Virus record (IMG/VR): IMGVR_UViG_3300008108_000486
Location: 1-56,031 of that record
Reading direction: 5' to 3' (one strand)
Origin: a virus
Lineage: Duplodnaviria; Caudoviricetes
DNA length: 56,031 bases
In this document: piece by piece, positions 10,274-48,600 of the stretch
Numbering within the stretch: the stretch's first letter is position 1
Layout: every line of letters begins with the position of its first letter
Translations under genes and position numbers: made by a program
The notes under the pieces: generated by a model
Told to the model about the DNA's origin: nothing
Seen by the model: only the letters and a program-made list of their open reading frames with translations
Database searches by the model: none

Positions 10274-10655
10274 CGGGGGATGTTGGGGATTATTTTGATT
10301 ATTTTATTATCGATTATGGTATATTAGTGCCTATTCTGGATTTTTGGCTTTTAGGGGGGTAAAAATGGGGTCCAAGAAAAAAGTGCAGGAAAGTGGATAT
10401 TTAAACATGCGGTCAAAAAATATAAGATTTTTGAAGGATATAGCTTTACCGCATAATTATAAAATTATATACTATGTATTGTATTAGTATCTATGTTTTT
10501 GTATCGCGTGTGTGCGTGCGCTACGGACCTGGCAAAAACTATAGTCACTAATATGAGCTATAATCTATAGTCTATAATCTAGGAGAAAATAAGCGTAAAC
10601 TATCCCTTGACTATTGATTATCGAGGGTATAGATTATTCTCAAAGAAGGAGCGAC

Positions 10656-15489: not shown

Positions 15490-15656
15490 CGAGGAGGGCC
15501 CGAAGATCCAGCCTGGAACTAACAATGTTTGAAGACATCGACAGCTGCAGCTGAATTTAAAAAATTCTTTCTGGGAATACTTGACATGCATTCTAGAGTT
15601 CTATAATATAAATTCCACTAGGGAACCCTAGGGTTTAAATGACGAAAGGAATTGCA

Positions 15657-21568: not shown

Positions 21569-21718
21569 ACGGGCATATATAAGAGAGGGGTAAAAACAAT
21601 GGGGGAAAACTTTTACCCCCTACCTATATACGGAACTTGTATTTTTAGTTTCCTACTCCTGCTGGCAACCCAGGCCAAAACCACGCTCAAAATAAGGGTT
21701 GGTTTTGACGCTTACTTT

Positions 21719-22315: not shown

Positions 22316-22342
22316 CAAGCGATATATAACTAGGGGGTAAAA

Positions 22343-24797: not shown

Positions 24798-25232
24798 ATG
24801 GCTAGCACTATCAAAAGCACAACAACCAGCAAGACCAAGCAGGTCGCTGGTAAGACAGTAAAAACCACCACAACTGAAACAACAGTAGTGGCTACTAGCG
24901 ATATTCTTTCGCTAGACAAAAGCGCAAAGAAAGCAAAAACTCTTATCGCAGAGTTAGTGCGTTTGCGTGAAGCGATTTCCGATATGGAAAAAGCAAAGAA
25001 AGAAACCACCGAAGCCATTTACGAACTTATGGGTTATGAGCAAGTAAAGGTTGGAGAAAAAACAAAGTGGGTAGGCGTTGCTAAAAAGGGAACAGTAAAA
25101 GGCGCAACGATTATCACGATTTCAGAAAGACCACGCAAAGATGTGGATACAAAAGCCTTAGAACTTTCGTATCCTGAAGTGTATGCTTCGGTGGCATACG
25201 ATAACCCTTATTTGGTTATCTTGGCGAAGTAG
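24798..25232 (+). CDS. hypothetical protein
   Basis: Own promoter (TTGACG 24713 / TAGAGT 24737) and terminator; D.K.L...YPEVY motif. Confidence 0.8.
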   Translation: MASTIKSTTTSKTKQVAGKTVKTTTTETTVVATSDILSLDKSAKKAKTLIAELVRLREAISDMEKAKKETTEAIYELMGYEQVKVGEKTKWVGVAKKGTVKGATIITISERPRKDVDTKALELSYPEVYASVAYDNPYLVILAK

Positions 25233-25257
25233 GTATCCCTAGTCCTACAAGTCGGCG

Positions 25258-25290
25258 AACCCCCTTGCGAAAGCAGGGGGGTTTTGCTTT
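25258..25290 (+). terminator. intrinsic terminator
   Basis: AACCCCCTTGC-GAAA-GCAGGGGGGTT plus T tract. Confidence 0.85.
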
Positions 25291-25517
25291 TACCCCCTTT
25301 CTATATATAGGAGAGGGGTAAAAAGAAACGGCACGGCACGCTATTGCGAAAGAGCAGGAGAGTGTTATAGAATAGAACTACCGAACTAGGGAAAGGTAAA
25401 ACAATGAAAGCAAGTTGCGTAGAGTGCGGGCGAGTATTCGACCTAACTAATGAAACGGATTTACAGGAAGCAAAATAAGACCTAACTATTTCAATAGTAG
25501 AAATAAAGGCGAGCAGT

Positions 25518-26045: not shown

Positions 26046-26085
26046 TATCTCACTAGCAAAACGCTAGAGAACTAGGGAGAAAAAA

Positions 26086-26807: not shown

Positions 26808-26969
26808 ACCCGATTGCTATATATAAGAGAGGGGTAAAAAAGGCTAGGGCTAAGTGTCGGCTAGAAGTGGGAAAGTATTTTCCGGGTGAAATGCATCGGC
26901 AGCTAGCCGGGAAATAATAATCTATGATAGAGTTTGCTTGCCGTAGAAAACTAGGGAAAGGAAAAAACT

Positions 26970-27428
26970 ATGAGCGCAATAGGAGTAGCAGAGGGAAAAA
27001 TATCTTTCTCTCTAAATAGTGATTGCCAATGCTTTGACTGTAATAAGTGCGGTATTGGTTATATGGGTGGAGAAGCCGGGGAGAAATGTAGTGACTGCAC
27101 GGGTGGAGTATTAGAAAACGCCAATGGTTGTATGGGTTGTTGGGACGATAGCGAAAGTATTTTTTACGACACTATCTACGAATGGCGCAAGGAAGTCGGA
27201 GTGAATTGGGGCTTAGTAAGGATTGACGGAAGAGGTATGGGCTGGACTAAAGAAATGGGAAGCGCCGTAGTGCCGTTGGATAAGGCTTTGAAGGCTTTGA
27301 CACTAAGAGGTGACTTTCGAATTGAGGTTGAGTTTAGTGGAAAGAGTTTCAGCGCTCGCCGTTATTCTCACGATGAGCCGACAGGAGCGAGTTTCTTTTT
27401 CACACTAGTCAAGGGTGAAGAAGACTAG
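26970..27428 (+). CDS. Cys-rich hypothetical protein
   Basis: Multiple CxC/CxxC, MGW..G, SHDEPTG; CTAGGGAAAGG leader. Confidence 0.8.
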   Translation: MSAIGVAEGKISFSLNSDCQCFDCNKCGIGYMGGEAGEKCSDCTGGVLENANGCMGCWDDSESIFYDTIYEWRKEVGVNWGLVRIDGRGMGWTKEMGSAVVPLDKALKALTLRGDFRIEVEFSGKSFSARRYSHDEPTGASFFFTLVKGEED

Positions 27429-27446
27429 AAAGGCTATGGACGCGAG

Positions 27447-27472
27447 AAGCCCTGCCGAGAGGTAGGGCTTTC
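27447..27472 (+). terminator. terminator-like hairpin
   Basis: AAGCCCTGCC-GAGA-GGTAGGGCTT. Confidence 0.7.
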
Positions 27473-27508
27473 GTGTTATTGTTGGCATATATAGAAGAGG
27501 GGTAAAAA

Positions 27509-27820
27509 ATGGATGAGATACCGAATGTAAAGAATGTAATCTTTATTGGAGATTACTTTTCAATGATTGTGAGCGTTGCCGTTCCTGGATCTGAAGTAAA
27601 GGATGGCGAAGCCTATGAAGACGCTTGCTTGCGTTCCGCTGGGACTTTGATGAAAGAGCATTATGGTTGGGATGTTCAAGCAGTTAGTAGACATATTGGC
27701 GTTCTCGATGAGGGAGACCCTAATTGTGAGACTTGCTATGGAGCAGGGAAGGTTAGTTCAGAGGTAGCTGGCTCAATGAGAGAAGTCGAGTGTCCCGATT
27801 GCTTTGCTAATAGGGGGTAA
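27509..27820 (+). CDS. hypothetical protein with a C-terminal zinc finger
   Basis: CETCYGAG and CPDC motifs. Confidence 0.75.
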   Translation: MDEIPNVKNVIFIGDYFSMIVSVAVPGSEVKDGEAYEDACLRSAGTLMKEHYGWDVQAVSRHIGVLDEGDPNCETCYGAGKVSSEVAGSMREVECPDCFANRG

Positions 27821-27858
27821 AATTTTTGCACCGAGAGTTTCAGATGTTAGAATAGTAG

Positions 27859-27957
27859 TCCGGGTAGTAGTGCGGATTCCCTTCCTGCGCTCCCCGTTGA
27901 GGTGAGATACCCTACTCACCGCACTTTCACCCATGTTCCCTAGCATGGGTGAAGTGT
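27859..27957 (+). ncRNA. candidate three-hairpin small RNA with UCCCU(AG)-type loops
   Basis: Promoter TTGCAC(27826)/TAGAAT(27848), no ORF, three consecutive stem-loops with loops TTCCCT, ATACCCTA and TTCCCTAG; next promoter starts at 27963. Confidence 0.7.
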
Positions 27958-27962
27958 CTATC

Positions 27963-27991
27963 TTGCAAATGTCAGGTAAGTAGTTTAGACT
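27963..27991 (+). promoter_or_regulatory. sigmaA-type early promoter with conserved spacer
   Basis: TTGCAA-17 nt (ATGTCAGGTAAGTAGTT)-TAGACT. Confidence 0.8.
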
Positions 27992-28101
27992 TATAGTAAC
28001 TTGGTAGGGGCTAGTCGCTGGACACCTGAACGCCTAGAACTTGCAAGGGGCGGAAACAATACGACACCCTACCGAGTCTCTAACCTAGGGAAGGAAAGTA
28101 A

Positions 28102-28335
28102 ATGAGTTACGAAGGAAGTATGAAAGGCTCAGGTATCTACGCCGAAGATGTGACTTTTGAAGTCGAGTGCGAAGAGTGCGGTAAGTCTTGGGAAGAAGAT
28201 TTTCAGACAGATGACTGGGGAGATGTTCAAGCAGAAGTAAAGTGCGAGTGCGGTCACGAATGGACTTTCTCAAGGGAGAGAGGCGAAGTAGATGACTCTA
28301 ATGAACCCGATAGATTAGAAGACCTATGGGACTAA
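28102..28335 (+). CDS. small acidic zinc-ribbon protein
   Basis: CEECG...CECGH; CTAGGGAAGG leader. Confidence 0.75.
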   Translation: MSYEGSMKGSGIYAEDVTFEVECEECGKSWEEDFQTDDWGDVQAEVKCECGHEWTFSRERGEVDDSNEPDRLEDLWD

Positions 28336-28338
28336 AGG

Positions 28339-28368
28339 AAGCCCCGCCGAAAGGCGGGGTTTTTCTTT
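28339..28368 (+). terminator. intrinsic terminator
   Basis: AAGCCCCGCC-GAAA-GGCGGGGTT plus T tract. Confidence 0.9.
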
Positions 28369-28430
28369 GCCCCGATATATAGAAGAGGGGTAAAAAATCA
28401 GGGAAGTGCAATGCCGTTATTCTTGAAGTC

Positions 28431-28679
28431 ATGGAAATCGTTCAAAAGTATTATCATTCAAATGGTGGTAGCGCTCCGTTTATGGTCGCAATAGTTGATG
28501 ACCCTGCCGATGGAGACACAAAACTTGTAATAATGTTTGAAGAAGAAGAATGCACCGCAGTTCTTTCTTTAGATACTTTGATAGAGAGTGAAGACATAGG
28601 TAAGAAAAACTCTTATTCAGGGGAAAGATACGAGTATGCTTTGCGTGATGAACTTTGGAATGACTCTAACTACTACTAA
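28431..28679 (+). CDS. hypothetical protein
   Basis: YH.NG..APF motif. Confidence 0.7.
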   Translation: MEIVQKYYHSNGGSAPFMVAIVDDPADGDTKLVIMFEEEECTAVLSLDTLIESEDIGKKNSYSGERYEYALRDELWNDSNYY

Positions 28680-29527: not shown

Positions 29528-29555
29528 TGTATTACTAGGGAAAGGAGGGAACCAA

Positions 29556-29878: not shown

Positions 29879-29907
29879 AAAGACAAGGGAACTAACTAGG
29901 GAGAAAT

Positions 29908-30806: not shown

Positions 30807-30858
30807 AAAAAAGCAGGGAAGTAAGATAGAGTTATCTCACTAGGGAAAGGGAAAACAA

Positions 30859-31056: not shown

Positions 31057-31083
31057 GAGAGATATATAAGAGAGGGGTAAAAA

Positions 31084-33999: not shown

Positions 34000-34105
34000 T
34001 TTGTTTTCTCCCTAGTGCGGTTTTTGTTTGGTTGTTTACCGCTAAGAAAATAGTAACCTACTTCCCTGCACTTTTGCAAGTCTTAGTGCCGTGTGTTTTA
34101 GGTAA

Positions 34106-34408: not shown

Positions 34409-35018
34409 TTGCTTCTCCCTAGTTAGTTAGTTGATCGTTTGACCAACAGGGAAAGCATATAATACTTGTCTGCACTTTCGCAAGACATGTCATAGATTTT
34501 TTGTAGGCATATCAAAACATAGACATGCTTGCTTGTCCTAGATTTTTCCTATGCTTGGTTTGTAAGTTACTTGATAAAGCTTATGAGTAACTTACTTGGA
34601 AGTAACAAGTTAGTTTGATGATCTTCTTTATAAGTCTAGATTAGAACTTGATAGTTCTATATAAGTAACTTCTATTAGAAAACTTTTTTATTTGTAAAAA
34701 TATTTTTGTTAGAAAAATTTTTTGTAATCAAAAAAGATTTTTATTATTTATTATGTAAAGAAAAATAAATAATAAATAGATCATAGGCATGTATAGGCAG
34801 GTTATTGGATATTTTTTAGTCAAAAATGGGGGGTAAAAAATATGCGGAACCGCATGAAAAAATACCCCGGAACGATTTCAAAAAGTCCAAAAAACACCCC
34901 CTGTCTTCTCCGGGGTCAAAATCAAAATATGGAAAGGTTCATATTTTCGTCTCTGTCGTACAAGCTTTAGAGCCCTTCTTTAAATTCACCTTCTTTAGAC
35001 TCCCGTACAATTACTTTC

Positions 35019-36555: not shown

Positions 36556-38292
36556 ATGGGTATATTCACTAACAACACCCCAGAACAGTCATCTCCTCAA
36601 CCTCAAACACCAAAAAGCAAAAGAACTAAATCAACTTTTTCTCGTTCTACACAAGTAGTTCAAGTTCAGCCATCTAATTCAGGCATTACTTCCGTTTTTA
36701 CTAACACAGCTAAATCAGTTTCTTACTCTGCACCTAGATCTCTTACAGCTGCAGCAGCACAGATAAAAATAAATGACAAAGGTGAATTCGAACAATTTAG
36801 AATTCGTCGTGCTGCAGGTTCGTCAGCATGGCAAGCCGAAGCTTGGGAATACTACGATGCAATCGGTGAAATCAAATACGCATTTAACTTAGTTGCTTCT
36901 GTTGTTTCACGCATTCGTATTTATGCAGCAGCCATTGATGATCCATCTGAGCAACCAACATCTGTTAGAAACTCAGCTATAGTTGATCAAAGACTTGCAA
37001 ATGCAGCAGAGCGTGCTTTAGAAAGATTAAACTCAGCATATGGTGGACAAGCAGGACTTCTTAAAGATGCAGCACTTAACTTGGCTGTCGCAGGAGAATG
37101 CTACTTGGTTCAAATGCCAGCTCGCCCAGGAAATAACCTTCCTGAGTCTTGGGATATTCGTTCTGTTGATGAAGTAACTGCAGATGTTCGTGGCGGATTT
37201 AATGTTATTGGCCGCCGTGAACAAGCAACTTCTTCACAAGGCGCTACTGCAAATACAAAATTAGGTAAGAATGCATTTATCGGACGCATCTGGCGTTCAC
37301 ACCCACGCTTTTCAGATGAAGCAGACTCTTCACTTCGTGGTTTGCTAGATCTCTGCGCCGAACTCCTTCTACTGAATAGGACATTCCGTGCGACTGCTCG
37401 CTCTCGTCTCAATGCTGGTGCGCTTTATCTACCTGATGGTCTTTCCGTCGCGTCGCAAGGCGATGCAGACTACCCCTACGATTCTGAGGATGGTATCGGT
37501 GCAGGGTTTACTGCTGAAGAAGCAGAGGATGAATTCGAAGAACAACTAATGGATGCGATGACTACTCCAATTCGTGATGAGGAGTCAGCATCAGCAGTTG
37601 TTCCACTTATTATTCGCGGTCCAGCAGAGCTTGGTGATCGTATCAAGCAATTTAAGTTTGAGCGTTCATTTGATCCTGCATTGGCTCAGCGTGCAGATCG
37701 TGTTCTAGAAAGAATCCTTCAGGGTCTTGATGTACCAAAGGATGTAGTCACTGGTCTTGCCAATGTCAAGTACTCGAACGCTCTCCAAATTGACGAATCT
37801 CTATATAAGGCACACATCGAGCCTCTTATGTTGCTCATTGCAGATGCTTTGACTGTTGTTTATCTTCGTCCGTATCTTATTGCAACAGGTTTCGAAGAGT
37901 CACAAGTAAATCGCATTGTTGTTTGGTATGACCCATCAGCAATTGCAACTCGCAATGACCGTGCAGCAGATGCAGATGCAGGATATGACCGCATGGCAGT
38001 CTCTGCAGATACATGGCGTCGTGCTCATGGCTTCTCAGATCAAGATGCACCTACTCCAACAGAAGTTGCAGTTCGACTTCTACAAGAAAAGGGCGCTATC
38101 ACACCAGAATTTACAGAAGCAATGCTCGGAGCTATTGCACCAGAGGTGATTAACAAGATCCGTGGTGCACAGCAAGCAGCTTCAGTTGCTCCACTACCTC
38201 CAGAAGTAGAACAAGCACTTCAGCAAGCAGCTCAAGGCGCTGAGGAAGCAGGTATTGCTTCAGAAACACCAACAGAGGAGGCTCAGCAATAA
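36556..38292 (+). CDS. portal protein
   Basis: WQAEAWEYYD.IGE, NL.VAGE.YL, RIWR.HP...ADS, RSRL..G.L, DE.SASAVVP; first gene of the head module. Confidence 0.8.
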   Translation: MGIFTNNTPEQSSPQPQTPKSKRTKSTFSRSTQVVQVQPSNSGITSVFTNTAKSVSYSAPRSLTAAAAQIKINDKGEFEQFRIRRAAGSSAWQAEAWEYYDAIGEIKYAFNLVASVVSRIRIYAAAIDDPSEQPTSVRNSAIVDQRLANAAERALERLNSAYGGQAGLLKDAALNLAVAGECYLVQMPARPGNNLPESWDIRSVDEVTADVRGGFNVIGRREQATSSQGATANTKLGKNAFIGRIWRSHPRFSDEADSSLRGLLDLCAELLLLNRTFRATARSRLNAGALYLPDGLSVASQGDADYPYDSEDGIGAGFTAEEAEDEFEEQLMDAMTTPIRDEESASAVVPLIIRGPAELGDRIKQFKFERSFDPALAQRADRVLERILQGLDVPKDVVTGLANVKYSNALQIDESLYKAHIEPLMLLIADALTVVYLRPYLIATGFEESQVNRIVVWYDPSAIATRNDRAADADAGYDRMAVSADTWRRAHGFSDQDAPTPTEVAVRLLQEKGAITPEFTEAMLGAIAPEVINKIRGAQQAASVAPLPPEVEQALQQAAQGAEEAGIASETPTEEAQQ

Positions 38293-39659: not shown

Positions 39660-42600
39660 ATGATTTTTTCTCAAAGAATTTTATCTACTCGTGAACAAGC
39701 ACGAGTTATTCGTCGTGAAGTAATTGAACTTGTAGATAAAGCTAACGAATTTTCTGTAGGATCTCGTAGAATTAATCGTAGAGCTGCTTATAAAGTAATT
39801 TCACGCTCTCTTAGTCAAAGCAGAGACCTTCCATTCTCTATTCGTAAGCACAAGGCTATTACAGATCTTTCAAACTACATTTCACTTGCCAAGTACAATA
39901 AAGTCATAGGTCTTACAGCAGATCACACTGACCTTCTCCCAATTTCTCATCCAAGATCAACTCAAATTAATGCGCTATCAGCATCTGCACTAGTTCAAGC
40001 AAAAATTCGTTGGTATGTAGATGATCCACGAATTAAAGATGACACTGTAAAGTCTCTTGTTGCATCTGCAATGGCTGCACCAACAGATTCTGCAGAATAC
40101 AAATACGCTCTTACTCGTTTAGAGAATCTTCCAGCATCAGAACTACCACTCGAGGCTCTTGCTGCAGCTGCAAATCCATATGCAGGTAAAAACTCTGCCG
40201 CTGCTCGCCGTGCCCGTGAGTCTATTCAACTCTCAGACCGCTTTGAGAGATGGCTTGATATGTTTGGATCTCTTAAGAAGCGTGCTACAGATGGCTTTAG
40301 AACTTATGTCCGTAGAAATGACGGAACAACACGAAGCCACTCAGGCGTTGTTCTTAATCAGAATATGGAAAGACCAGAACTTATTGATATTGAGGTTGGT
40401 AAGGGCAAAGTTGCAATTGTTCCTATTAAATCTGGTGAAGGATTAAAAGCTTTTATCAAAGACCCTGATTCTGTAGATGGTTTTTCTCAGACAGAAGCAA
40501 AGCCAACTAACGCTCCAATAATTCCAGAAGATTCTATTGTTTTTACTGAAGCTCCTAGTATTTATCGTAAAGAAGATGACTACAGAGGTAAAGGCACAAA
40601 GTACACAGACGATAAGTACGACATTATTAAGTTTGATAATCCTAAAGATGCAATGCCTCTTATTGATGACTCAAATAAGCGTGCAGCAGATTTGGATAAG
40701 CCAGCTCCAAAGCAATTAAAACTTGGAGAGATTGATTCAGACACAGGTCGTCAGTTCTGGAACCCAGATGAGCCAGTTTTTGCAGTTGCTCGTCGTGGTA
40801 AGAAAACAAATTTTGCATTTACTCAAACTTGGAAAGATGTTAACAACGAGATTATGCTCGACGAGCCAGATCTTGATGAAGAAGAAGGTCGTGATTACAC
40901 ACGCCCAGAGCCTAGAACTTCAGATGACACTGTTCCTCTTATACAGCAAGCTAATAAAATTTTTGATGGCAAAAAGCGTAAACAAAAAGAAGATAAAAAA
41001 GAAACAGCTCCTGCTTTCCCATATAAAGTTCCAGATCGTGCATACGAATTTAACCCAAATGAAGAGTACACACCTGAATTTGATTTTGACGATCCAGAAT
41101 CACTTGCAGAAATTGACACACCAGTTTTGGAAGAAGCTCTTCTTCGTTCTGTAGAACCAGTAAGTGCAACTGAAAGAGCAACAGGATTTGCACCACTAGA
41201 TCTTCCAAACGGAGATACAGAGGATGTTAGCTCAGAAGCAATTGCATCAGCTCTTAGAGCTAAGGGCCAAGACGCTGAGATGGCTCTTGCAAAAGCTTAC
41301 GACAAAATTGCAGGAGATACAAAGAATCAAGATGATTTAAAAGCTTCTCGTGAAGAACGCAGAGCGGATGAAGCTGCAAAGCCAGCAGATCTTGAAGAAA
41401 AGTTTGATGAAGTAGTTAAAGAAGAACCAGAAAAAGTAGAACCTACTCCAGTATCTGATGAAGTTGCAGAGGATATTGCAGATACTTCAGAAGGTCTTGT
41501 AAGAGATCTTTCAGATGAAGAGCTTAGAAAGATTCCAGCTCTTAAGGGTCTTTCAGACGAAGAATTCGACAAGATTGTCAATGATCCAAACTACGACTAT
41601 TCAAGCGTTATACCTAAAATTGACGATTTTGATGTGCCAGAAGGTATGTACAAGCCGGGCGAGTCTACAGCTGAAGATCGTCTTAATGCTTTAGAGCTTG
41701 CAGCAATTTCAAATAGAAGAGCTCCTAACTCTTTACTAGAAAGCAAATTGAAAGAAGCCATGGACGGAAGTGGTCCAGAGTTGGGTAAAGCTTCTATTCC
41801 TGCTTTCGATGAAAATGGCGAGCAAATAGATATTCCAGTATCTGCAGAAACCCTTCGTGATGCTATAGCTCTTCGCGGCAAAGATGCTGCTAAGGCTATG
41901 AAAAAGATTGCTAAACCAGAAGCAGAAGAGAAGCCAGCTAAAGAAGAGAAGCCAGCTGAAGAAGAAAAAGAAACAAAGCCAGTAGGAACATATAAGCGTT
42001 CTGGTGGAAGAACTCTTCTAAAAGACGGAAAAGGCAAGCCTTTTACATCTAACAAAGAAGTTGCAGACTTTTTGGCAGAAAACGGTTTCGAGTTTACAGA
42101 AAAAGTTACAACTAAAGATGGAAGAGAGCTTCCAGTTTATGCTCACTCAAAGCAGCAAACAGATGAAGAGTTTAAGTCTTTGGCAAGAGAGCTTCGTGAT
42201 CGTTTTGGTATAGATCTAAAGCCTCGTCCAGCAACTACTCAATCTCCAGCTCAAGAAGAAATTGATTTTGATGCTCCGTCTCCAGAGAAGCCAGCAGAAG
42301 CTGAAACTCCAATAGTTCCTCCTACAACTCCACCTACAGGTCCTGAAGGCGTTGAAGAGCCAGAAGAAGAAGAGCCTAAGCTAGACCCAAAGCGTCCTAC
42401 AAATGTAAGTAGTAAAAATGATTTAGTAAACGAAAACCAAAAAATTGTTGTTCAAGATAATAATGTCTTTACATTAGACGGAAAATTCTTAGGAAAAATT
42501 CCAGAAGGAATGTCTGCAGAAGAATTTTTAAGATCTTATTATTACAGAGCAACTCGTACTGGAAGAGATGCAGAAGCTATTGCAAAGGCTATAAAAGCAT

Positions 42601-45600
42601 CAGAAAAAGATAAGCCTTATGATGGATCAGATTTCTACCCTACAGACGAAGATGAACGCGCTGCAGTTGAGGCTATTAGAGAGCAAGATAGAAAAAATAG
42701 AGAAGAAGAAGAAGAAGAACTATCTAATAGTAAAAAAGATTTACTTAAGCAGCTTGTTAATGAGCGCCGTATTGTTCAGGATGCCATTGATGAAGCTGAT
42801 CTTTCAGATGAAGTAAAGCCAGAAGAAAAACAAGCTCTTCGTGATCTCTACGATAAATTAACACGAGCAATTGACGCAATTGTTCTTGGTGAACAAGTAG
42901 AAGATACCAAGTCTCCAGAAAATCAAGTAGCCGATGAGACTTTGTCAGAAGCATTTAATGATGAAGCATATAAACCTACTATTCAAATACTTCTAGATAA
43001 GCTGTTTGGAAGAAAAGAAGATAAGGTCCCAGTTGGGCCTTTTGGATCACGCAAAGACATGATCTCAAAGTTGATGTGGTTTAAGTGGGGCGCTGGATTT
43101 AAGAAGAACGAGTCTCCATTCATTAGAGACGCTATGACCAAATATGAAAAAGACCTTAACAATCTTTCAACTGAAGACATGATTGATTTGCTCAACCTAT
43201 ACTACGATGAAATTGATGCAAAGATAGAAGCAGACAGAATTGCTTCTGATCGTGCAAAGATTATTGCAGAGGCAAAGAAAGCTCGTCGCAAGGCATATGA
43301 GGACAGCCTCATTGAAGAATACATTCGTGGCAAGAAGGGTGTTACTGACGGGCGTGGTATTGAATATAGAAAGAGAGAAGATGGGACTTGGGATCAATCC
43401 ACTGGCCCTATTGGTGGAAACCCATGGAGACAGAAAGTAACTCTTAATCCAGCAGATGGTTACGAAATTAAAGAAATTCCTGGCTACGATAAAGACGCAC
43501 CAGGAACTGGAATAGTTAATAGCGTAAAACTTCATATTCCAAGAGAAGGCGATTATGTAAAGCAGGAAGATGGAACTTGGAAACGCATTGTAAAACTAGA
43601 GCGTGAAAAGCGTAAGGTTCCTTCAGATAAAGCTGGAAAAGCAGACGCAACTATTGAAGAATATACTTACATATATGAAGATGGGACATCGGATTTTGTA
43701 AGAACATCTAATGGAACTCTTGATATTGATGTTAATCGTAAGAGAGTAGATATTGTTCGTTCCGCTGATTTAGTAGAAGCTTCAGAAGCTTCAGCTCCAG
43801 TAGCAGAGTCAACTCCAGCCTCTTCTCTAGTTAAGAAGATCAAATCAAGAACTTCTCAACTACAGCCAGGCGATGTAAAAGCTGATGACTTCTTCACTAT
43901 TACAAAAATAGAACAAGAAGGAACTAAGCCAGTTAGAGTTGACGGAAAAGTTCAACAGTCCAGCAAGCTTTGGTCTGACAACTACGCTCCAGAGGTTTAT
44001 CGTGGAGCAACTCCTCCTTCAAAGGGAGATCTTCCAGAGCTAAATCAGCCTAAAGCTGAAGACTATGGTGATTTTGCATATCCAAACCAGACAAAGGTTA
44101 AATACAAGGACCGCACACTCTGGGCTCCAAAAGACAAAGCTCTTGCAGATAAATTCTTAGAAGATTACAAAGCGTATGACGAAGAACTTGCTCGTCGTAA
44201 GGCACTGTGGCAAGCTCCAGAAGTTACTGCAGAAAATGACGAATCAAAGTCAGGTTCTCCAACAACTCCTAATAATCCTCTCTATACAGACAGTGTTCCA
44301 GCATCTGAAGTAAAAGAAGGTGACATTGCATTTAGAAGAGACAAAGATGGTCTTAAGGAATTCTTTGTTGTAACTAAAGTTGTTAGCGATAGAGATGGAA
44401 CTACAACTCTTGAAGGACATTATGTTGGACACCAGACACAGACTAAAGAATGGCGCTCTGGAACTAACATTGAAGTAATTCGTGGAGAGACAAACCTTCC
44501 TGCAGCTGGAGATAAAGAACCTCTAGATCGTCCAGATAAGACTCTTCCAAACTATGCAGAACTCGAGAAGGCTCGTAAAGAAAAAATTGCTGAAGCAGAT
44601 AAGGGTTACTCACCAGTATTCCCAACAGAAGATGCTTTTAAGGGAGTTACTCCTCTAGAGTCTAAGCCAAACCTTCCAGCGTTCTATGGATCTGCTGAAG
44701 AGCTTCTTGCTCTTGGAGATGGACCTGAAGTTATGAAGGCTCTTGATGAAAAGGGCTTTATTGTCTTTGACTTCGAGACAATCGGAAAAGATGTAGCTAA
44801 CTCACTTAACCCAGATGCTCCTATTCAAGTTGCAGCATCTAAATATCTAAACGGTGAAAAGGTAGATACATTAAATCTATTCATTAATCCGGGAGAACCT
44901 CTTTCAACTTATTACTACGAGACAGATGAAGCTGGGAATAGAGTTCTTAAAGCTGATCGTTTAAGAGATTCTGAAGGCAATCCAATTACAGACGAGTGGC
45001 TAGCTACTCAGCCTGAAATCAAAGAGCAGCTACAAAAGCTTCTCGATTTCTTTGGAGAAAAGCCAATTCTTGTTGGTCAGAACAACACATTTGATATTAA
45101 CTTGCTTGAGCGCTGGGCAGAAAAGCTTGGTCTAAACTTCTCAATGGGTGGAGCTGTAGACACAAGAACAATTGCTAAGATTTTACAAGCTAAAGATCAA
45201 AAGTCAGTTGAATTCCCAGAGAATCCAGCTGATGGAGATGTTGTAACTATAAATGGTGGAGACTGGGTTTACTCAGAAGAGAAAAAGCGCTTTATAGCAC
45301 CGTCTAATTCTTTGAAGCCACTCGCAGAGCGTCTAGGAGTTTCCACAGATGCTCCAGGTGGATTCCACGACGCAGCATTCGATATCGATGTAACAGAAAA
45401 AGTCCTTCGCGCTCTTATGTCTAAGGTTCAAGCTGGAGACTTTAAGACAACAGGAGCAACCAAGAAGTATGACGCTGGATATGACAAGTGGATTAAGTCC
45501 CGTGATCAGAGAGTCAAGGATATTGCCGCAATTCAGGCAGATAGATTGCTTTCTGGTAAGACTACAGATGTTGATGCAGCTGTTGGAGAAATCAATGCTG

Positions 45601-48600
45601 TTGGCGACGAGAAGGTTGTAATTGTCGATGGAGAAGAGACTGTAGTAACTCCTAAAGTTTACAAGTCAGCATTCTCAGACCAAGTAATTAATAAAGACTG
45701 GGTAGAAGATCCAGAAAACACAACATTTATAGAGAACGCAAGGATCAAAGATCTAAAACTTGGAGACTTTATTGTTGGTAAGAATGGAAACTACCAAGAA
45801 GTAGTTGCTTTTGACGATGACGATAAAGATCCAGCAAATGCAATTAAGGTCTTCCGTGCAGATATTGAAGATGGCGTAGTTCTTGAGAATAGAGATTCAG
45901 ATAGAGAAGATGGCGGAACTGGTTTCTATCTAAATGGAAGACTTGAAGGCGGAATCTTTAGACCTAATGGAAACAGAGATAAGAGCAGTGCTCAGATCAA
46001 TGTTGATTCTATTAAACCAGAACCTGTAGACGAAACTCCAGTCATCGTTGAGCCTGTAGCTCCAGTAAAGGGCGAAGAATTAACTGATGACCAAGTAAAG
46101 ACAGTTGTTGCAGATGTTATTGATGACATCACATCTGGTGCAAAGCCTGAAGCAACTATTGAAGAAGCTGTTAAGGGTGCAAACATTGATGAAACCATCA
46201 AGGAGCAAGTACTTGGTGCAGATAGAGAAAAGACCTCAGAACACCTCACCAAACAAGGCGTACAGCTTGCTAAGGGAGACAGAGTTCTTAACATCAAGAA
46301 CAAGAAGACTGGCCGTGTAGTAAATCTATTTGATACTTACGGCAAGGCTGGCTATACAAACTATGTAAAGATTAAGTATGACGATGGCTCTAAGGGTCCT
46401 GTAGCAAGCGACAGCTTGTCAATTATTGATGCTGCAACAGATGGTTACACACCAAGAGTTATTAATGCTGGTGATATCCTACGACCAGCCGATAAAACAT
46501 CTACAAAGACAGTTCAAGATGTTGTAGACACAATTAAAAACATTCAATCTAAGCCTGTTCCTGAAGGAGTAGATGCTCCAGAGAATCTTCCAAATCCTGA
46601 AGAGCTCGCACAAACTTGGAAAGATAAAGAAGCAGAGCGTAACAAGCTTGCTGAAGAATTAAACTTTGTTTCTACATCTCCAGAAACTGTCTCTGCTATC
46701 AAGGCAAATCTTCCAGCTAAAATTTCTACAGAGAGCTTTATGCCAAGTCTTAAGACTGGCGAACCTATGAATGTAACCTTTGGTTTTGATAAGCCAAATG
46801 GAAGAGAGCTTGCAAGCTATGCAGAGATGATGAATATCTCTAGCCCAGACGACATTCTTGTTTTCAAAGCAACTCCAGAGTACATCCTAAGAAAAGAACA
46901 TCTTGCAACAATTAAACCAGATGGAACAATTACTTGGGTTGGTGAGAATCAAAAGAATACGACCTCTATAGATCTAAAGAACGCTCTAGATTCATATACA
47001 AGTCCTGTAACTGGTTTACAAGCTATGGCTGTTATGCCAGAAGAAGACGATGAAGAGCCAACACCAAGTGCTCTTGGCACAGACGAAGATGTTTTTGATT
47101 ACAGCAGAATTGCAAGTATCAACCCAACATCTGAGCAAAGATCAGTTATTGATGCGGTAATGACTGGAAAGAATGTTGTAGTTCGTGCTTTGGCTGGAAC
47201 TGGAAAAACTTCTACTCTAAAGCTTGCTGCAAAGCGTATTAAGGCAGAGAAGCCAGATAAGAAGATTACATACATTGTATTTAATAAGTCTGTTCAGGTA
47301 GAAGCGTCTAAAGAGTTCCCAGACAATACAGATCCAAGAACCGCTGATTCTATTGGTTATTGGAATGTTGACTCAGCGCTGAGAGATAAATCAAGAAAAG
47401 CTGATTTTATTCTAAATGGACCAGATATTTCTAAGCACCTAGGAATAGTTCCTACACCAGTAAAGGTAAAGGGAACAGAGCAAAATCTTTCAACAAGAGA
47501 CATTCCTAAGATCCTAAGAGATGCTCTTGATAAATTCACAGCATCAGATGATGACAAAGTCACAGTAAAGCATTTTGCTGGAATGAATTTAGACGAAGTT
47601 CCTCCTGTCTTTATTGAATGGGCAAACAAGTGGTGGGAAGATCTTTCAAGCCCAACAGGAAAGCTTTACACATCTCCTAGCGACCTTACAAAAGCATGGG
47701 CTCTATCTAAGCCAGACTTCTCTAAGGGACTCATTGGTCCAGATGCCAAGGGTAAGCCAGTAACAAGAGATGTCAATGTTGTTATGTATGACGAAGCTCA
47801 GGATATTAACCCTGTTATGGCTAAAGTCATGCGTGATCAAAAAGATGTTCAAGTTATTTATGTTGGCGATAGCAACCAAGCAATCTATGGTTTCCGTGGT
47901 GCTATCGACGAGCTAGACAATGTAGTAGCAGATTATGACTTGCCTATTACAGAAACTTTCCGCTTCGGTGAAAAAATTGCAGGTATCGCTAACAGATTCC
48001 TAACCAAACTAGATTCTAAGTACCGTGTTAAAGGTCTACCAGGCAAAGACGGAGAAGTCCTTGATGTCATGGAAGATCCAACAGTAATTATCACTAGAAC
48101 AAATGGTGGCGGTATTTCAGCAATGCTTGAAATGCTAGAAAAGAATAAAGTTGTCGGTATTGATGAGAAGACATTTAACGATTATGAATCTCTTATCAAA
48201 GACATCGAATGGTTAATGCGTGCAGGTCGTGCTGGTGGAATATCTCCAGGAGCAAGAAGACCTCATAAGGATCTAGCTAGCTTTAACACATGGGCAGAAG
48301 TAATCTCCGCTGTACAAAAGGGAGAATCTCTAGGATCTGCAGCATACATGGTTAATATCTTGAGAGATAAGTCTCCTCAAGACATAAAGGATGTTCTTTC
48401 ACGAATTGAGAAGATTACCAATAAGCCAGAGCCAACTGCTCCTTATGTTCCTATAACACTTGATGATCTTAAGGATGGATCTAAGGGAGTTCTTGGATAT
48501 AAAACTATTAGTAAAGGTGGAAGACAGTTCCCTGTAAATGTTGAGTACTCTGTAGAGAACGGCACGATGACCATTTCAAATGGTGGAGATTTCTCTACTC

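What the first reader, a model, noticed from the sequence alone, without database searches (positions are those of the whole stretch)
27859..27957. Stand-alone three-hairpin sRNA whose loops are antisense to the CUAGGGA(A) leader of about 10 early genes
Seen: own promoter, no ORF, and three stems (AGTGCGGA/TCCTGCGCT; GGTGAG/CTCACC; CACTTTCACCCATG/CATGGGTGAAGTG) with unrelated stem sequences but convergent loops TTCCCT, ATACCCTA and TTCCCTAG. The complement CTAGGGA lies shortly before starts at 15618, 25386, 26072, 26951, 28085, 29535, 29896, 30840 and, on the minus strand, about 34015 and 34422. Inference: a multivalent antisense repressor that shuts off a whole class of early mRNAs. An alternative is a sponge for a CCCU-binding protein.
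Basis: partly seen in the sequence, partly recalled or inferred. Interest (0 to 1): 0.85.

Follow-up and report, generated by a model that had tools for sequence, protein, structure and literature searches.

The report
Phage small RNA complementary to gene leaders
A conserved non-coding RNA gene of about 100 bases in a family of freshwater actinobacterial phages shows, in its hairpin loops, the exact complement of a short box that sits just before the start of about ten of the phage's own small genes, so it probably controls their translation as a group.

Summary
Window 27859-27957 (+) folds into three hairpins (-46.3 kcal/mol, z -6.5). Their loops are UUCCCU, AUACCCUA and UUCCCUAG. CTAGGGA occurs 14 times; 10 copies lie 5-14 nt upstream of an ATG.

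The element is a real, conserved RNA gene. A covariance model finds one copy in each of 52 related loci (26 distinct sequences). 22 of 34 base pairs show compensatory changes, and 25 of 26 sequences fold alone into three hairpins. UCCCUAG is kept in 25 of 26. A -10 element (TAnnnT, mostly with TG) precedes every variant shown. Loop 2 is C-rich in only 14 of 26. Rfam has no match, and a pattern scan of bacterial genomes found none.

The CTAGGGA box recurs before ORFs in the relatives, including genes absent from the window. It resembles the "start-associated sequences" (SAS) of Cluster K mycobacteriophages, whose role papers from 2011 to 2025 call undefined.

Best reading (about 0.55): a phage sRNA that pairs through its loops with these leaders at or next to the ribosome-binding site. 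Pairing, direction of the effect, expression and timing are untested.

A second conserved UCCCUAG loop lies at 25234-25243. In phage Adephagia the only reverse SAS also sits in a hairpin loop.

The parts
27825..27853 (+). promoter of the sRNA: TTTGCA, 17-nt spacer, TG-extended -10 TAGAAT
   Evidence: consensus scan; not significant alone. A TAnnnT -10 (usually preceded by TG) sits about 7-9 nt before the first stem in the 11 variants and the 20, including the most distant one (L093). It is kept in L007/L008/L022, where an extra gene and terminator separate the sRNA from the upstream gene.
27859..27957 (+). about 99-nt non-coding RNA, three hairpins (model match 27859-27960)
   Evidence: z -6.47. 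Model R1 scores 101.6 bits, E 3.9e-19. 22 of 34 pairs show changes on both sides in 26 distinct sequences. An invariant G-U pair and many U-G pairs fit the + strand only.
27861..27896 (+). hairpin 1 with closing stem CGGG/CCCG; loop UUCCCU at 27877-27882
   Evidence: The closing pair G-C changes to A-U in 8 of 26. The loop holds UCCC(U) in 25 of 26 single-sequence folds.
27901..27920 (+). hairpin 2, GGUGAG/CUCACC; loop AUACCCUA at 27907-27914
   Evidence: 4 of 6 pairs covary and 100% of cells are paired. The loop is C-rich in only 14 of 26.
27921..27957 (+). hairpin 3 and probable terminator; loop UUCCCUAG at 27936-27943
   Evidence: UCCCUAG is present in 25 of 26. The next promoter starts about 12 nt after the stem.
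15618..15624 (+). CTAGGGA leader box, 14 nt before ATG 15639 (152 aa); part of the inverted repeat CTAGGG-AA-CCCTAG
25386..25392 (+). CTAGGGA leader box, 11 nt before ATG 25404 (24 codons here, 50 in relatives)
26072..26078 (+). CTAGGGA(G) leader box, 7 nt before ATG 26086 (130 aa, DUF3846)
26951..26957 (+). CTAGGGA(A) leader box, 12 nt before ATG 26970 (152 aa)
28085..28091 (+). CTAGGGA(A) leader box, 10 nt before ATG 28102 (77 aa)
29535..29541 (+). CTAGGGA(A) leader box, 14 nt before ATG 29556 (74 aa); second box GGAGGGAA follows
29896..29902 (+). CTAGGGA(G) leader box, 5 nt before ATG 29908 (193 aa); AAGGGAA box 5 nt upstream
30840..30846 (+). CTAGGGA(A) leader box, 12 nt before ATG 30859 (65 aa); second AGGGAAA box follows
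34009..34015 (-). CTAGGGA(G) leader box, 9 nt before ATG 33999 (108 aa)
34416..34422 (-). CTAGGGA(G) leader box, 7 nt before ATG 34408 (86 aa)
25229..25285 (+). second anti-box site: small hairpin GUAGG-UAUCCCUAGU-CCUAC directly after the stop codon of gene 24798-25232, then a strong terminator (25260-25285)
   Evidence: AUCCCUAGUC plus the terminator is found in 10 distinct variants from relatives.

Best explanation
Window 27859-27957 encodes a trans-acting small RNA of a freshwater actinobacterial phage.

How it is made: it is transcribed from its own host-type (TG-extended -10) promoter and ends at hairpin 3.

What it binds: the apical loops of hairpins 1 and 3 (and of hairpin 2 in about half of the family) present UCCCU or UCCCUAG. 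These pair with the box CUAGGGA(A/G) found 5-14 nt upstream of the start codon of at least ten of the phage's small non-structural genes.

Where the box sits: in the CUAGGGAG leaders the box is itself the Shine-Dalgarno-like element. In the CUAGGGAAAGG leaders it abuts one. A bound loop would therefore lie inside the ribosome's footprint.

Likely effect: it changes translation initiation (most likely blocks it) and perhaps mRNA stability for the whole set at once. Having two or three loops per RNA lets one molecule hold two boxes of one leader, or bridge several mRNAs.

Shown: the RNA gene, its structure, its conservation, the complementarity, and conservation of the box.
Inferred: expression, pairing in vivo, the sign of the effect, and timing.
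For: (1) Structured RNA gene. z -6.47. All 12 first variants fold alone into the same shape, as do 25 of 26 distinct family members. A MAFFT-only alignment of 12 gives 10 of 24 predicted pairs with compensatory changes. The model-based alignment of 26 distinct sequences gives 22 of 34 such pairs, 97.9% of cells paired against 86.4% in shuffles (0 of 500 reach it) and 42-55% when partners are slid.

(2) Strand and transcription unit. G-U pairs fit the + strand only. A conserved -10 (TAnnnT, mostly TG-extended) lies at a fixed distance. The unit stays intact when another gene and terminator are inserted upstream (L007/8/22) and when the downstream gene differs (L006/12/13/19).

(3) Loops are conserved while stems change. 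UCCCUAG is in 25 of 26, and at least two UCCCU in 26 of 26.

(4) The loops are the exact complement of the most over-represented leader word. CTAGGGA is 9 of the 34 NNNGGGA words in leader windows. All ten leader copies are in sense orientation.

(5) The box is conserved before ORFs in the relatives' loci, including genes not present in the window.

(6) A second, independent UCCCUAG loop lies in the 3'UTR at 25234-25243 and is conserved.

(7) Predicted loop-leader duplexes are 8-9 bp. Energies are -12.4 to -15.4 kcal/mol for 10 of 10 box leaders (mean -13.1), against a mean of -8.8 for 65 other leaders.

(8) 4 of 10 leaders carry a second (A)GGGAA-type box that fits loop 1.

(9) The only divergent member (L093) has changed loops, and its 5 kb shows no CTAGGGA leader.

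(10) Precedent in the host phylum, from the title and abstract start in a search listing: M. tuberculosis 6C sRNA 'binds multiple mRNA targets via C-rich loops independent of RNA chaperones' (PMC6486639).
Against: - No expression data and no pairing data exist.
- The core box and loops are invariant across the family, so covariation between loop and target cannot be tested. L093 is a single case seen over only 5 kb.
- Loop 2 is not conserved as a C-rich loop (12 of 26 lack it).
- In the window's own minimum-energy fold, loop 3 closes down to CCCU.
- Duplex energies are moderate. 5 of 65 leaders without the box reach -13 kcal/mol or better, and my loop strings included three stem bases on each side.
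- AGGGAA also occurs in the non-transcribed spacer of the target genes' promoters, and CTAGGG forms an inverted repeat at 15618-15631. Both hint at recognition at the DNA level.
- DSL-LC01, the nearest named phage, has 21 copies of another leader box and no reverse copy in the 100 of 129 kb examined. Such boxes can therefore exist without an anti-box RNA.
- Hairpin 3 has a U-poor tail, so termination there is assumed.
Confidence: 0.55

Rival explanations
1. The sRNA's main targets are host mRNAs. Its C-rich loops would pair with G-rich ribosome-binding sites of host genes, as cellular C-rich-loop sRNAs do. Complementarity to phage leaders would be secondary, or a way for phage mRNAs to titrate it.
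For: C-rich loops that bind many mRNAs are documented for actinobacterial 6C sRNA (PMC6486639, listing only). Loop 1 also gives good predicted duplexes with ordinary AAGGAG-type leaders.
Against: The conserved loop 3 word includes UAG, which matches the non-Shine-Dalgarno part (CUA) of the phage box. The host is unknown, so no host target could be examined. No cellular copy of the RNA was found (0 matches).
Confidence: 0.12
2. The RNA is a protein decoy or sponge. The repeated UCCCU loops would bind and titrate an RNA-binding protein or an endoribonuclease of host or phage. The match to the leaders would be coincidental.
For: Several loops share one short motif, the layout of known sponge RNAs (recalled: CsrB/RsmZ). 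The upstream zinc-ribbon gene 27509-27817 sits next to the sRNA in the 20 of the 21 loci whose sequence is shown far enough (the 21st, L022, has the same partial element as L007/L008 at the cut-off), and a model hit lies beside that gene in 29 of 38 metagenome loci.
Against: It does not explain why the loops are the exact reverse complement of the commonest leader 7-mer, nor why the same word recurs in a second conserved loop at 25234-25243. A protein that binds UCCCU would not bind CUAGGGA. The synteny is partly built in, because the loci were found through that protein.
Confidence: 0.1
3. CTAGGGA is a DNA site for a phage regulator, an asymmetric operator like the 'stoperators' of Cluster A mycobacteriophages. 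The copies inside 27859-27957 would simply be reverse-oriented sites.
For: CTAGGG-AA-CCCTAG is an inverted repeat in the divergent region 15591/15639. AGGGAA lies in the conserved spacer GTCAGGGAAGTAG of at least six promoters of this region. Stoperators are 13-bp asymmetric sites that act in transcription (PMC3203893, passage read).
Against: The three reverse copies lie exactly in apical loops of three hairpins whose stems covary, as does a fourth copy. A DNA site needs no such setting. The box keeps a tight distance to start codons (5-14 nt) but not to the -10 elements (7-26 nt by eye). A box of 7-9 bp is short for a protein site.
Confidence: 0.08
4. The element is only a transcription stop or insulator: three hairpins between two genes with no trans function.
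For: Hairpin 3 is flagged as terminator-like, and the next promoter follows within about 12 nt.
Against: The element has its own conserved promoter. Loop sequences are conserved while stems change. One hairpin is enough to terminate. In L007/8/22 a separate strong terminator already lies upstream.
Confidence: 0.05

Closest known systems
6C sRNA (B11) of Mycobacterium and other Actinobacteria
   Same: A small RNA of the same host phylum. It has hairpins whose C-rich apical loops pair with several mRNAs without a chaperone (title and abstract start of PMC6486639, search listing).
   Different: It is chromosomal, not phage-borne. No Rfam family, 6C included, matches 27800-28110 even at E up to 10. 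The loops here carry three Cs in a fixed UCCCU(AG) word rather than runs of six (the six-C feature is recalled). The targets proposed here are the phage's own genes, marked by one shared box.
Start-associated sequences (SAS) of Cluster K mycobacteriophages
   Same: A short asymmetric box immediately upstream of start codons of a subset of non-structural genes. It occurs in one orientation, overlaps the ribosome-binding site but extends beyond it, and is conserved before unrelated genes (PMC3203893, passages read). A subset has an extended upstream element, as the leader of 28102 does.
   Different: The sequence differs (13-bp GGGATAGGAGCCC against 7-9-nt CTAGGGA(A/G)), as do the phage lineage and host. 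The papers state no partner RNA. The role is called 'not known' or 'ill-defined' in 2024 (PMC11373665) and only 'proposed' in 2025 (PMC12699233).
C-rich-motif sRNAs of Firmicutes (RsaE/RoxS, RNAIII hairpins); recalled, not tested here beyond Rfam
   Same: UCCC motifs in loops pair with G-rich Shine-Dalgarno regions of many mRNAs and block initiation.
   Different: They are cellular, of a different phylum, and have no sequence or model similarity.
Phage antisense RNAs that mask a ribosome-binding site (P1/P7 c4, P22 sar, lambda OOP); recalled
   Same: A phage-encoded small RNA pairs with phage mRNA at or near the ribosome-binding site.
   Different: As far as I recall, those act on one operon through long or cis-antisense complementarity. 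Here a short loop word would address ten or more separate transcription units.
Protein regulators of early phage mRNAs (T4 RegA repressor, RegB nuclease cutting GGAG); recalled
   Same: Class-wide control of early messages through a short element at the ribosome-binding site.
   Different: The effector is a protein, not an RNA.

Membership tests
Any Rfam 15 family (6C, RsaE, Yfr, hammerhead and others) | Covariance-model score at or above the gathering threshold, or at least a weak match | tested here: not met
   The whole window at gathering thresholds gives only two tRNAs. 27800-28110 at E up to 10 gives 0 matches.
6C sRNA | Two hairpins whose loops each hold a run of about six C (recalled definition) | tested here: not met
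   There are three hairpins. The loops are UUCCCU, AUACCCUA and UUCCCUAG, with three Cs each.
6C sRNA | Chromosomal gene conserved in Actinobacteria | tested here: not met
   A strict pattern scan of 185,579 species genomes gave 0 matches. All 52 copies lie next to the same phage gene. The pattern is strict, so distant cellular relatives are not excluded.
Trans-acting base-pairing sRNA (functional class) | Own promoter and terminator, no ORF, conserved structure | tested here: met
   Promoter and terminator are inferred from conserved sequence, not from transcripts.
Trans-acting base-pairing sRNA (functional class) | Conserved single-stranded seed complementary to target mRNAs at a functional site | tested here: met
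   UCCCUAG is in a loop in 25 of 26 and is complementary to the box 5-14 nt before ten start codons.
Trans-acting base-pairing sRNA (functional class) | Expression, and target regulation that depends on pairing | not testable with these tools
   No RNA run holding the stretch was listed. Reporters with compensatory mutants are needed.
Cluster K start-associated sequence (SAS) | 13-bp consensus GGGATAGGAGCCC | tested here: not met
   The window's box is CTAGGGA(A/G).
Cluster K start-associated sequence (SAS) | A few nt upstream of start codons, one orientation, non-structural genes, before unrelated genes | tested here: met
   Distance is 5-14 nt and all ten copies are sense. All lie at 15.6-34.4 kb, before the portal gene at 36.5 kb. 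Relatives carry the box before other genes.
CsrB/RsmZ-type sponge | Multiple GGA-containing loops (recalled) | tested here: not met
   The loops are pyrimidine-rich UCCCU.

The most novel reading that the evidence does not exclude
Start-associated boxes of actinobacterial phages (the CTAGGGA box here, SAS in Cluster K) would be address labels read by phage-encoded anti-box RNA loops. In Cluster K1 phages it is a hairpin in the intergenic region where the late transcript is reported to begin. The phage would then switch off (or re-programme) translation of a whole set of early messages with one RNA, without a protein repressor. That would give the SAS, unexplained since 2011, a testable function.
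Probability: 0.3. Interest if true: 0.85.

Novelty: new variant of a known kind. Interest (0 to 1): 0.72.

Why it matters
Phages are known to control early genes as a class with proteins. Base-pairing sRNAs with C-rich loops are known in bacteria. A phage RNA whose loops address a shared box in front of ten or more of its own genes would join the two ideas: a small, portable, RNA-only regulon switch.

It also bears on an open question. Actinobacterial phages carry conserved start-associated boxes whose role the literature I read still calls unknown. In Adephagia, the single reverse SAS lies in the apical loop of a conserved hairpin. It sits in the region where late transcription is reported to start. 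This makes the idea directly testable in a laboratory phage-host pair.

The RNA family itself (26 distinct members) is absent from Rfam.

Tried and rejected
- Rfam: no match at gathering thresholds or at E up to 10.
- Hammerhead ribozyme: some variants read CUGAUGAG before hairpin 2. The segment after hairpin 2 is CGCAC, not GAAAC, the window itself has GUUGAG, and Rfam is silent. Rejected.
- blastn of 27400-28500 against named phages: no match.
- DSL-LC01: model R1 with filters off on its first 50 kb gave a best hit of 17.7 bits, E 0.027, at a terminator-like site. I take this as no homologue. A weak anti-box-like stretch at L057 4280-4317 folds into a structure, but only part of the word is in a loop; not pursued. 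Bases 100-129 kb of that genome were not examined.
- Bacterial genomes: pattern scan, 0 matches.
- Expression: no RNA holder listed.
- L093's full record could not be searched, so its leader repertoire is known from 5 kb only.
- Covariation between loop and box: impossible within the family, because both are invariant.
- Cluster K generalisation is only partial. The loop is an exact anti-SAS in 4 of 9 sampled phages (Adephagia, LastHope, Validus, Amelie). It is a degenerate C/U-rich word in 3 of 9 (Amohnition, Unicorn, Bryler). It is unrelated in 2 of 9 (Keshu, Marshawn). The five genomes scanned (Adephagia, Unicorn, Amohnition, Keshu, Marshawn) each carry 16-17 forward SAS. The 9 were picked from 177 matching records to span identity bands, not at random.
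- Supplementary tables of the SAS papers were not seen. They may list the reverse sites and their context.

Full report
**What the window is.** The window is a virus record of 56 kb, estimated 42% complete, with GC about 42%. Its portal protein (36556-38289) is 75.7% identical to that of Actinomycetia phage DSL-LC01, a 129-kb lake phage, and more distantly related to those of Microbacterium, Arthrobacter and Gordonia phages. Gene order matches DSL-LC01: an AAA ATPase, a run of small genes, an HslV-like gene, then the portal. I therefore treat it as a freshwater actinobacterial phage whose host is unknown.

**The observation.**
It folds into three hairpins at -46.3 kcal/mol, with z -6.47 against dinucleotide shuffles.
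- The loops are UUCCCU, AUACCCUA and UUCCCUAG. In the window's own minimum-energy fold, two weak extra pairs narrow loop 3 to CCCU.
- CTAGGGA occurs 14 times against 5.5 expected.
- One copy is loop 3 read on the other strand. Ten lie 5-14 nt upstream of an ATG in sense orientation.
- Nine of those ATGs open ORFs of 65-193 codons. The tenth opens 24 codons here and 50 in relatives.
- The CTA part is not explained by Shine-Dalgarno likeness. Among 263 NNNGGGA words, CTAGGGA supplies 9 of the 34 that fall in leader windows; the runner-up supplies 3.

**Is it a gene for an RNA?**

How relatives were found:
- The flanking protein 27509-27817 found 21 IMG/VR loci.
- A pattern built from conserved parts of the element found 22 contigs, essentially the same set.
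- A protein-profile scan of metagenome contigs found 38 more loci.
- Some contigs occur in both collections, so I count distinct sequences.

Results with model R1, built from eight variants:
- It finds exactly one match per locus: 52 matches at E up to 1e-5 in 61 sources, 26 of them distinct.
- Among the 38 metagenome loci, 29 have a match. Eight of the other nine end within 75 nt after the protein match. The ninth (L067) has only 299 nt there.

Evidence for structure:
- Each of the first 12 variants, folded alone, gives the same three-hairpin shape, as do 25 of the 26.
- A MAFFT-only alignment gives 10 of 24 predicted pairs with compensatory changes.
- The model-fitted alignment gives 22 of 34. 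97.9% of cells are paired against 86.4% in shuffles (0 of 500 reach it) and 42-55% with slid partners. That alignment leans towards the structure by construction.
- An invariant G-U pair and frequent U-G pairs fit the + strand only.
- Lengths run from 98 to 105 nt with steps that are not multiples of three, so no reading frame is conserved.

Evidence for a stand-alone transcription unit:
- A TAnnnT -10 element (usually with TG) sits 7-9 nt before the first stem in every variant shown, including the most distant one.
- The unit survives insertion of an extra gene with its own terminator upstream (L007/8/22).
- It also survives replacement of the downstream gene (L006/12/13/19).
- The next promoter begins about 12 nt after hairpin 3. 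Hairpin 3 therefore probably terminates, although its tail is U-poor.

**Loops.** Stems change while loops stay. UCCC(U) is in loop 1 in 25 of 26. UCCCUAG is present in 25 of 26. Loop 2 is C-rich in only 14 of 26 and is CUUG-like in a whole clade. The RNA is therefore reliably bivalent and only sometimes trivalent.

**The box in relatives.** In the 22 IMG/VR loci (4-14 kb each), 19 have CTAGGGA before at least one ORF other than the sRNA's own antisense copy. L048, L042 and L050 are the exceptions; L048 holds only the sRNA's own copy. L038 has 12 copies, 8 of which precede an ORF by my simple rule. The ORFs include genes not present in the window. Two leader forms exist:
- CTAGGGAG followed by 5-9 nt and ATG. 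Here the box is the Shine-Dalgarno-like element.
- CTAGGGAAAGG..., where the box abuts a purine-rich element.

Four of the ten window leaders hold a second (A)GGGAA-type box that fits loop 1.

**A second anti-box site.** On the + strand, TCCCTAG at 25236-25242 lies in the loop of a small hairpin. The hairpin starts within the stop codon of gene 24798-25232 and is followed by a strong terminator. The word AUCCCUAGUC plus the terminator is found in 10 distinct variants from relatives. This is independent support that the word matters as single-stranded RNA in this orientation.

**Pairing potential.** Loop 3 gives 8-9 bp with every box leader. Energies are -12.4 to -15.4 kcal/mol, mean -13.1 for the 10, against -8.8 for 65 other leaders. 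Five of those 65 reach -13 or better, mostly through loop 1 and its stem bases, which my strings included. The energies allow pairing but do not prove it.

**Evidence against, and limits.**
- No RNA data exist.
- Box and loops do not vary within the family, so joint variation cannot be tested. The one divergent member, L093 (flanking protein 42% identical), has loop 3 ACUCCCUG and a loop 1 without UCCCU. Its 5 kb shows leaders of the DSL-LC01 type and none with CTAGGGA. This agrees with the model but is a single case.
- DSL-LC01 has its own box (CGAAAGGA, 21 copies, all on the + strand, 24-43 kb). It has no reverse copy in 100 of 129 kb and no R1 match in its first 50 kb. Boxes can therefore exist without an anti-box RNA.
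- AGGGAA also lies in the conserved spacer of the target genes' promoters (TTGnAAAAGTCAGGGAAGTAG...TAGACT), at 27973, 29860, 30590, 30796, 30814 and 34068. CTAGGG also forms an inverted repeat at 15618-15631. Some recognition at the DNA level cannot be excluded.
- The sRNA's own promoter lacks that spacer box. This may mean it is timed differently from its proposed targets; that is an inference.

**Comparison with what is known.**
- No Rfam family matches, and no copy was found in 185,579 species genomes with a strict pattern.
- In mechanism, the nearest cellular case in the host phylum is 6C sRNA, which binds several mRNAs through C-rich loops (PMC6486639, title and abstract start only).
- The leader box behaves like the start-associated sequences of Cluster K mycobacteriophages. 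Those are asymmetric, lie 3-7 bp before start codons of non-structural genes, and extend beyond the ribosome-binding site.
- The role is still called not known in 2024 (PMC11373665, passages) and only proposed in 2025 (PMC12699233, passages).
- A search for actinobacteriophage + small RNA + antisense + ribosome binding site found no paper. A search for phage-encoded + small RNA + C-rich + Shine-Dalgarno found one general review.

**A lead in Cluster K.**
- In Adephagia that copy (record 58682-58694) lies in the 430-nt gp92-gp93 gap.
- It occupies the apical loop (CCUCCUAUCC) of a long hairpin. The surrounding 141 nt fold with z -4.1.
- The region matches 177 phage records, all Mycobacterium phages. 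It is preceded by a conserved TTGnCG...TAGACT promoter-like element.
- Among nine sampled phages the loop is an exact anti-SAS in four, a degenerate C/U-rich word in three, and unrelated in two. The five genomes scanned each keep 16-17 forward SAS.
- The parallel is suggestive but not general.

**Verdict.**
- The feature is real and conserved, and it is not in Rfam.
Its interpretation is the best available but is unproven as to pairing, sign and timing.
- I rate it a new variant of a known kind: a base-pairing sRNA with C-rich loops, here phage-borne and aimed at a shared box of the phage's own genes.
- It offers a testable link to the unexplained start-associated sequences of actinobacterial phages.

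Noticed in passing
window 25229-25285 (+): A small hairpin, GUAGG-UAUCCCUAGU-CCUAC, overlaps the stop codon of gene 24798-25232 and is followed by a strong terminator. The same anti-box word as in sRNA loop 3 is found here in 10 distinct variants from relatives. It may be a 3'UTR-derived sRNA.
   Followed up: partly
window 28000-28076 (+); relatives e.g. L012 1966-1988, L065 1661-1683: A conserved structured 5'UTR of about 80 nt (GGUAGGGG ... AAGUCGCUGG ... GAAACAAUACGAC. CCCUACCGAG). There is one match in each of the 21 loci that have one (84 of 105 loci fetched have none). In 8 of the 9 aligned sequences it sits a few nt before a CTAGGGA leader (L003 is the exception), in front of different genes in different clades. 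One stem pair covaries (GC in 5, AU in 4 of 9). No Rfam match. It recalls the 'extended SAS' of Cluster K.
   Followed up: partly
window 27485-27508, 31060-31083, 21575-21598, 22320-22342, 10345-10364: A second recurrent leader type: (TATATA)..AGAGGGGTAAAAA directly before the start codon. The same GGGGTAAAA word overlaps the stop codon of gene 27509-27820, just upstream of the sRNA promoter.
   Followed up: no
window 27973, 29860, 30590, 30796, 30814 (+) and 34068 (-): Promoters of the small genes share a conserved spacer box, TTGnAAAAGT-CAGGGAAGTAG-(N)-TAGACT/TAGAGT. The sRNA promoter lacks it. This may be an operator for a class-specific regulator.
   Followed up: no
window 15618-15631: Inverted repeat CTAGGG-AA-CCCTAG between the divergent genes 15591 (-) and 15639 (+), directly after a near-consensus TTGACA-17-TATAAT promoter.
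   Followed up: no
L096 38620-38760 (Mycobacterium phage Adephagia, record about 58619-58759): The only reverse-oriented SAS of this Cluster K1 phage lies in the apical loop of a long conserved hairpin in the gp92-gp93 gap. Late transcription is reported to start in that gap. The loop is an anti-SAS in 4 of 9 sampled Cluster K phages, degenerate in 3 and unrelated in 2.
   Followed up: partly
L057 24000-43400 (Actinomycetia phage DSL-LC01): 21 small genes carry the leader (A)ACGACGAAAGGACAA before ATG, many after a TATAAT(A/T)GAATCA promoter. No reverse copy was found in the first 100 kb. This is a different start-associated box in the nearest named relative.
   Followed up: partly
window 27509-27820 (+): A 103-aa protein with a C-terminal CxxCxGxG...CPDC zinc-ribbon (weak Anti-TRAP/DnaJ-type match, E 0.0014, below the Pfam cut-off). 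It lies directly upstream of the sRNA in relatives. It could be a partner of the RNA or merely a neighbour.
   Followed up: no
window 25404-25478 (+): The ORF behind the 25386 box stops after 24 codons in the window, while relatives have 50 codons. This may be a recent nonsense change.
   Followed up: no
window 39660-49742 (+): A single ORF of 3360 aa lies after the portal region. DSL-LC01 has a 9.9-kb hypothetical gene in the matching place.
   Followed up: no
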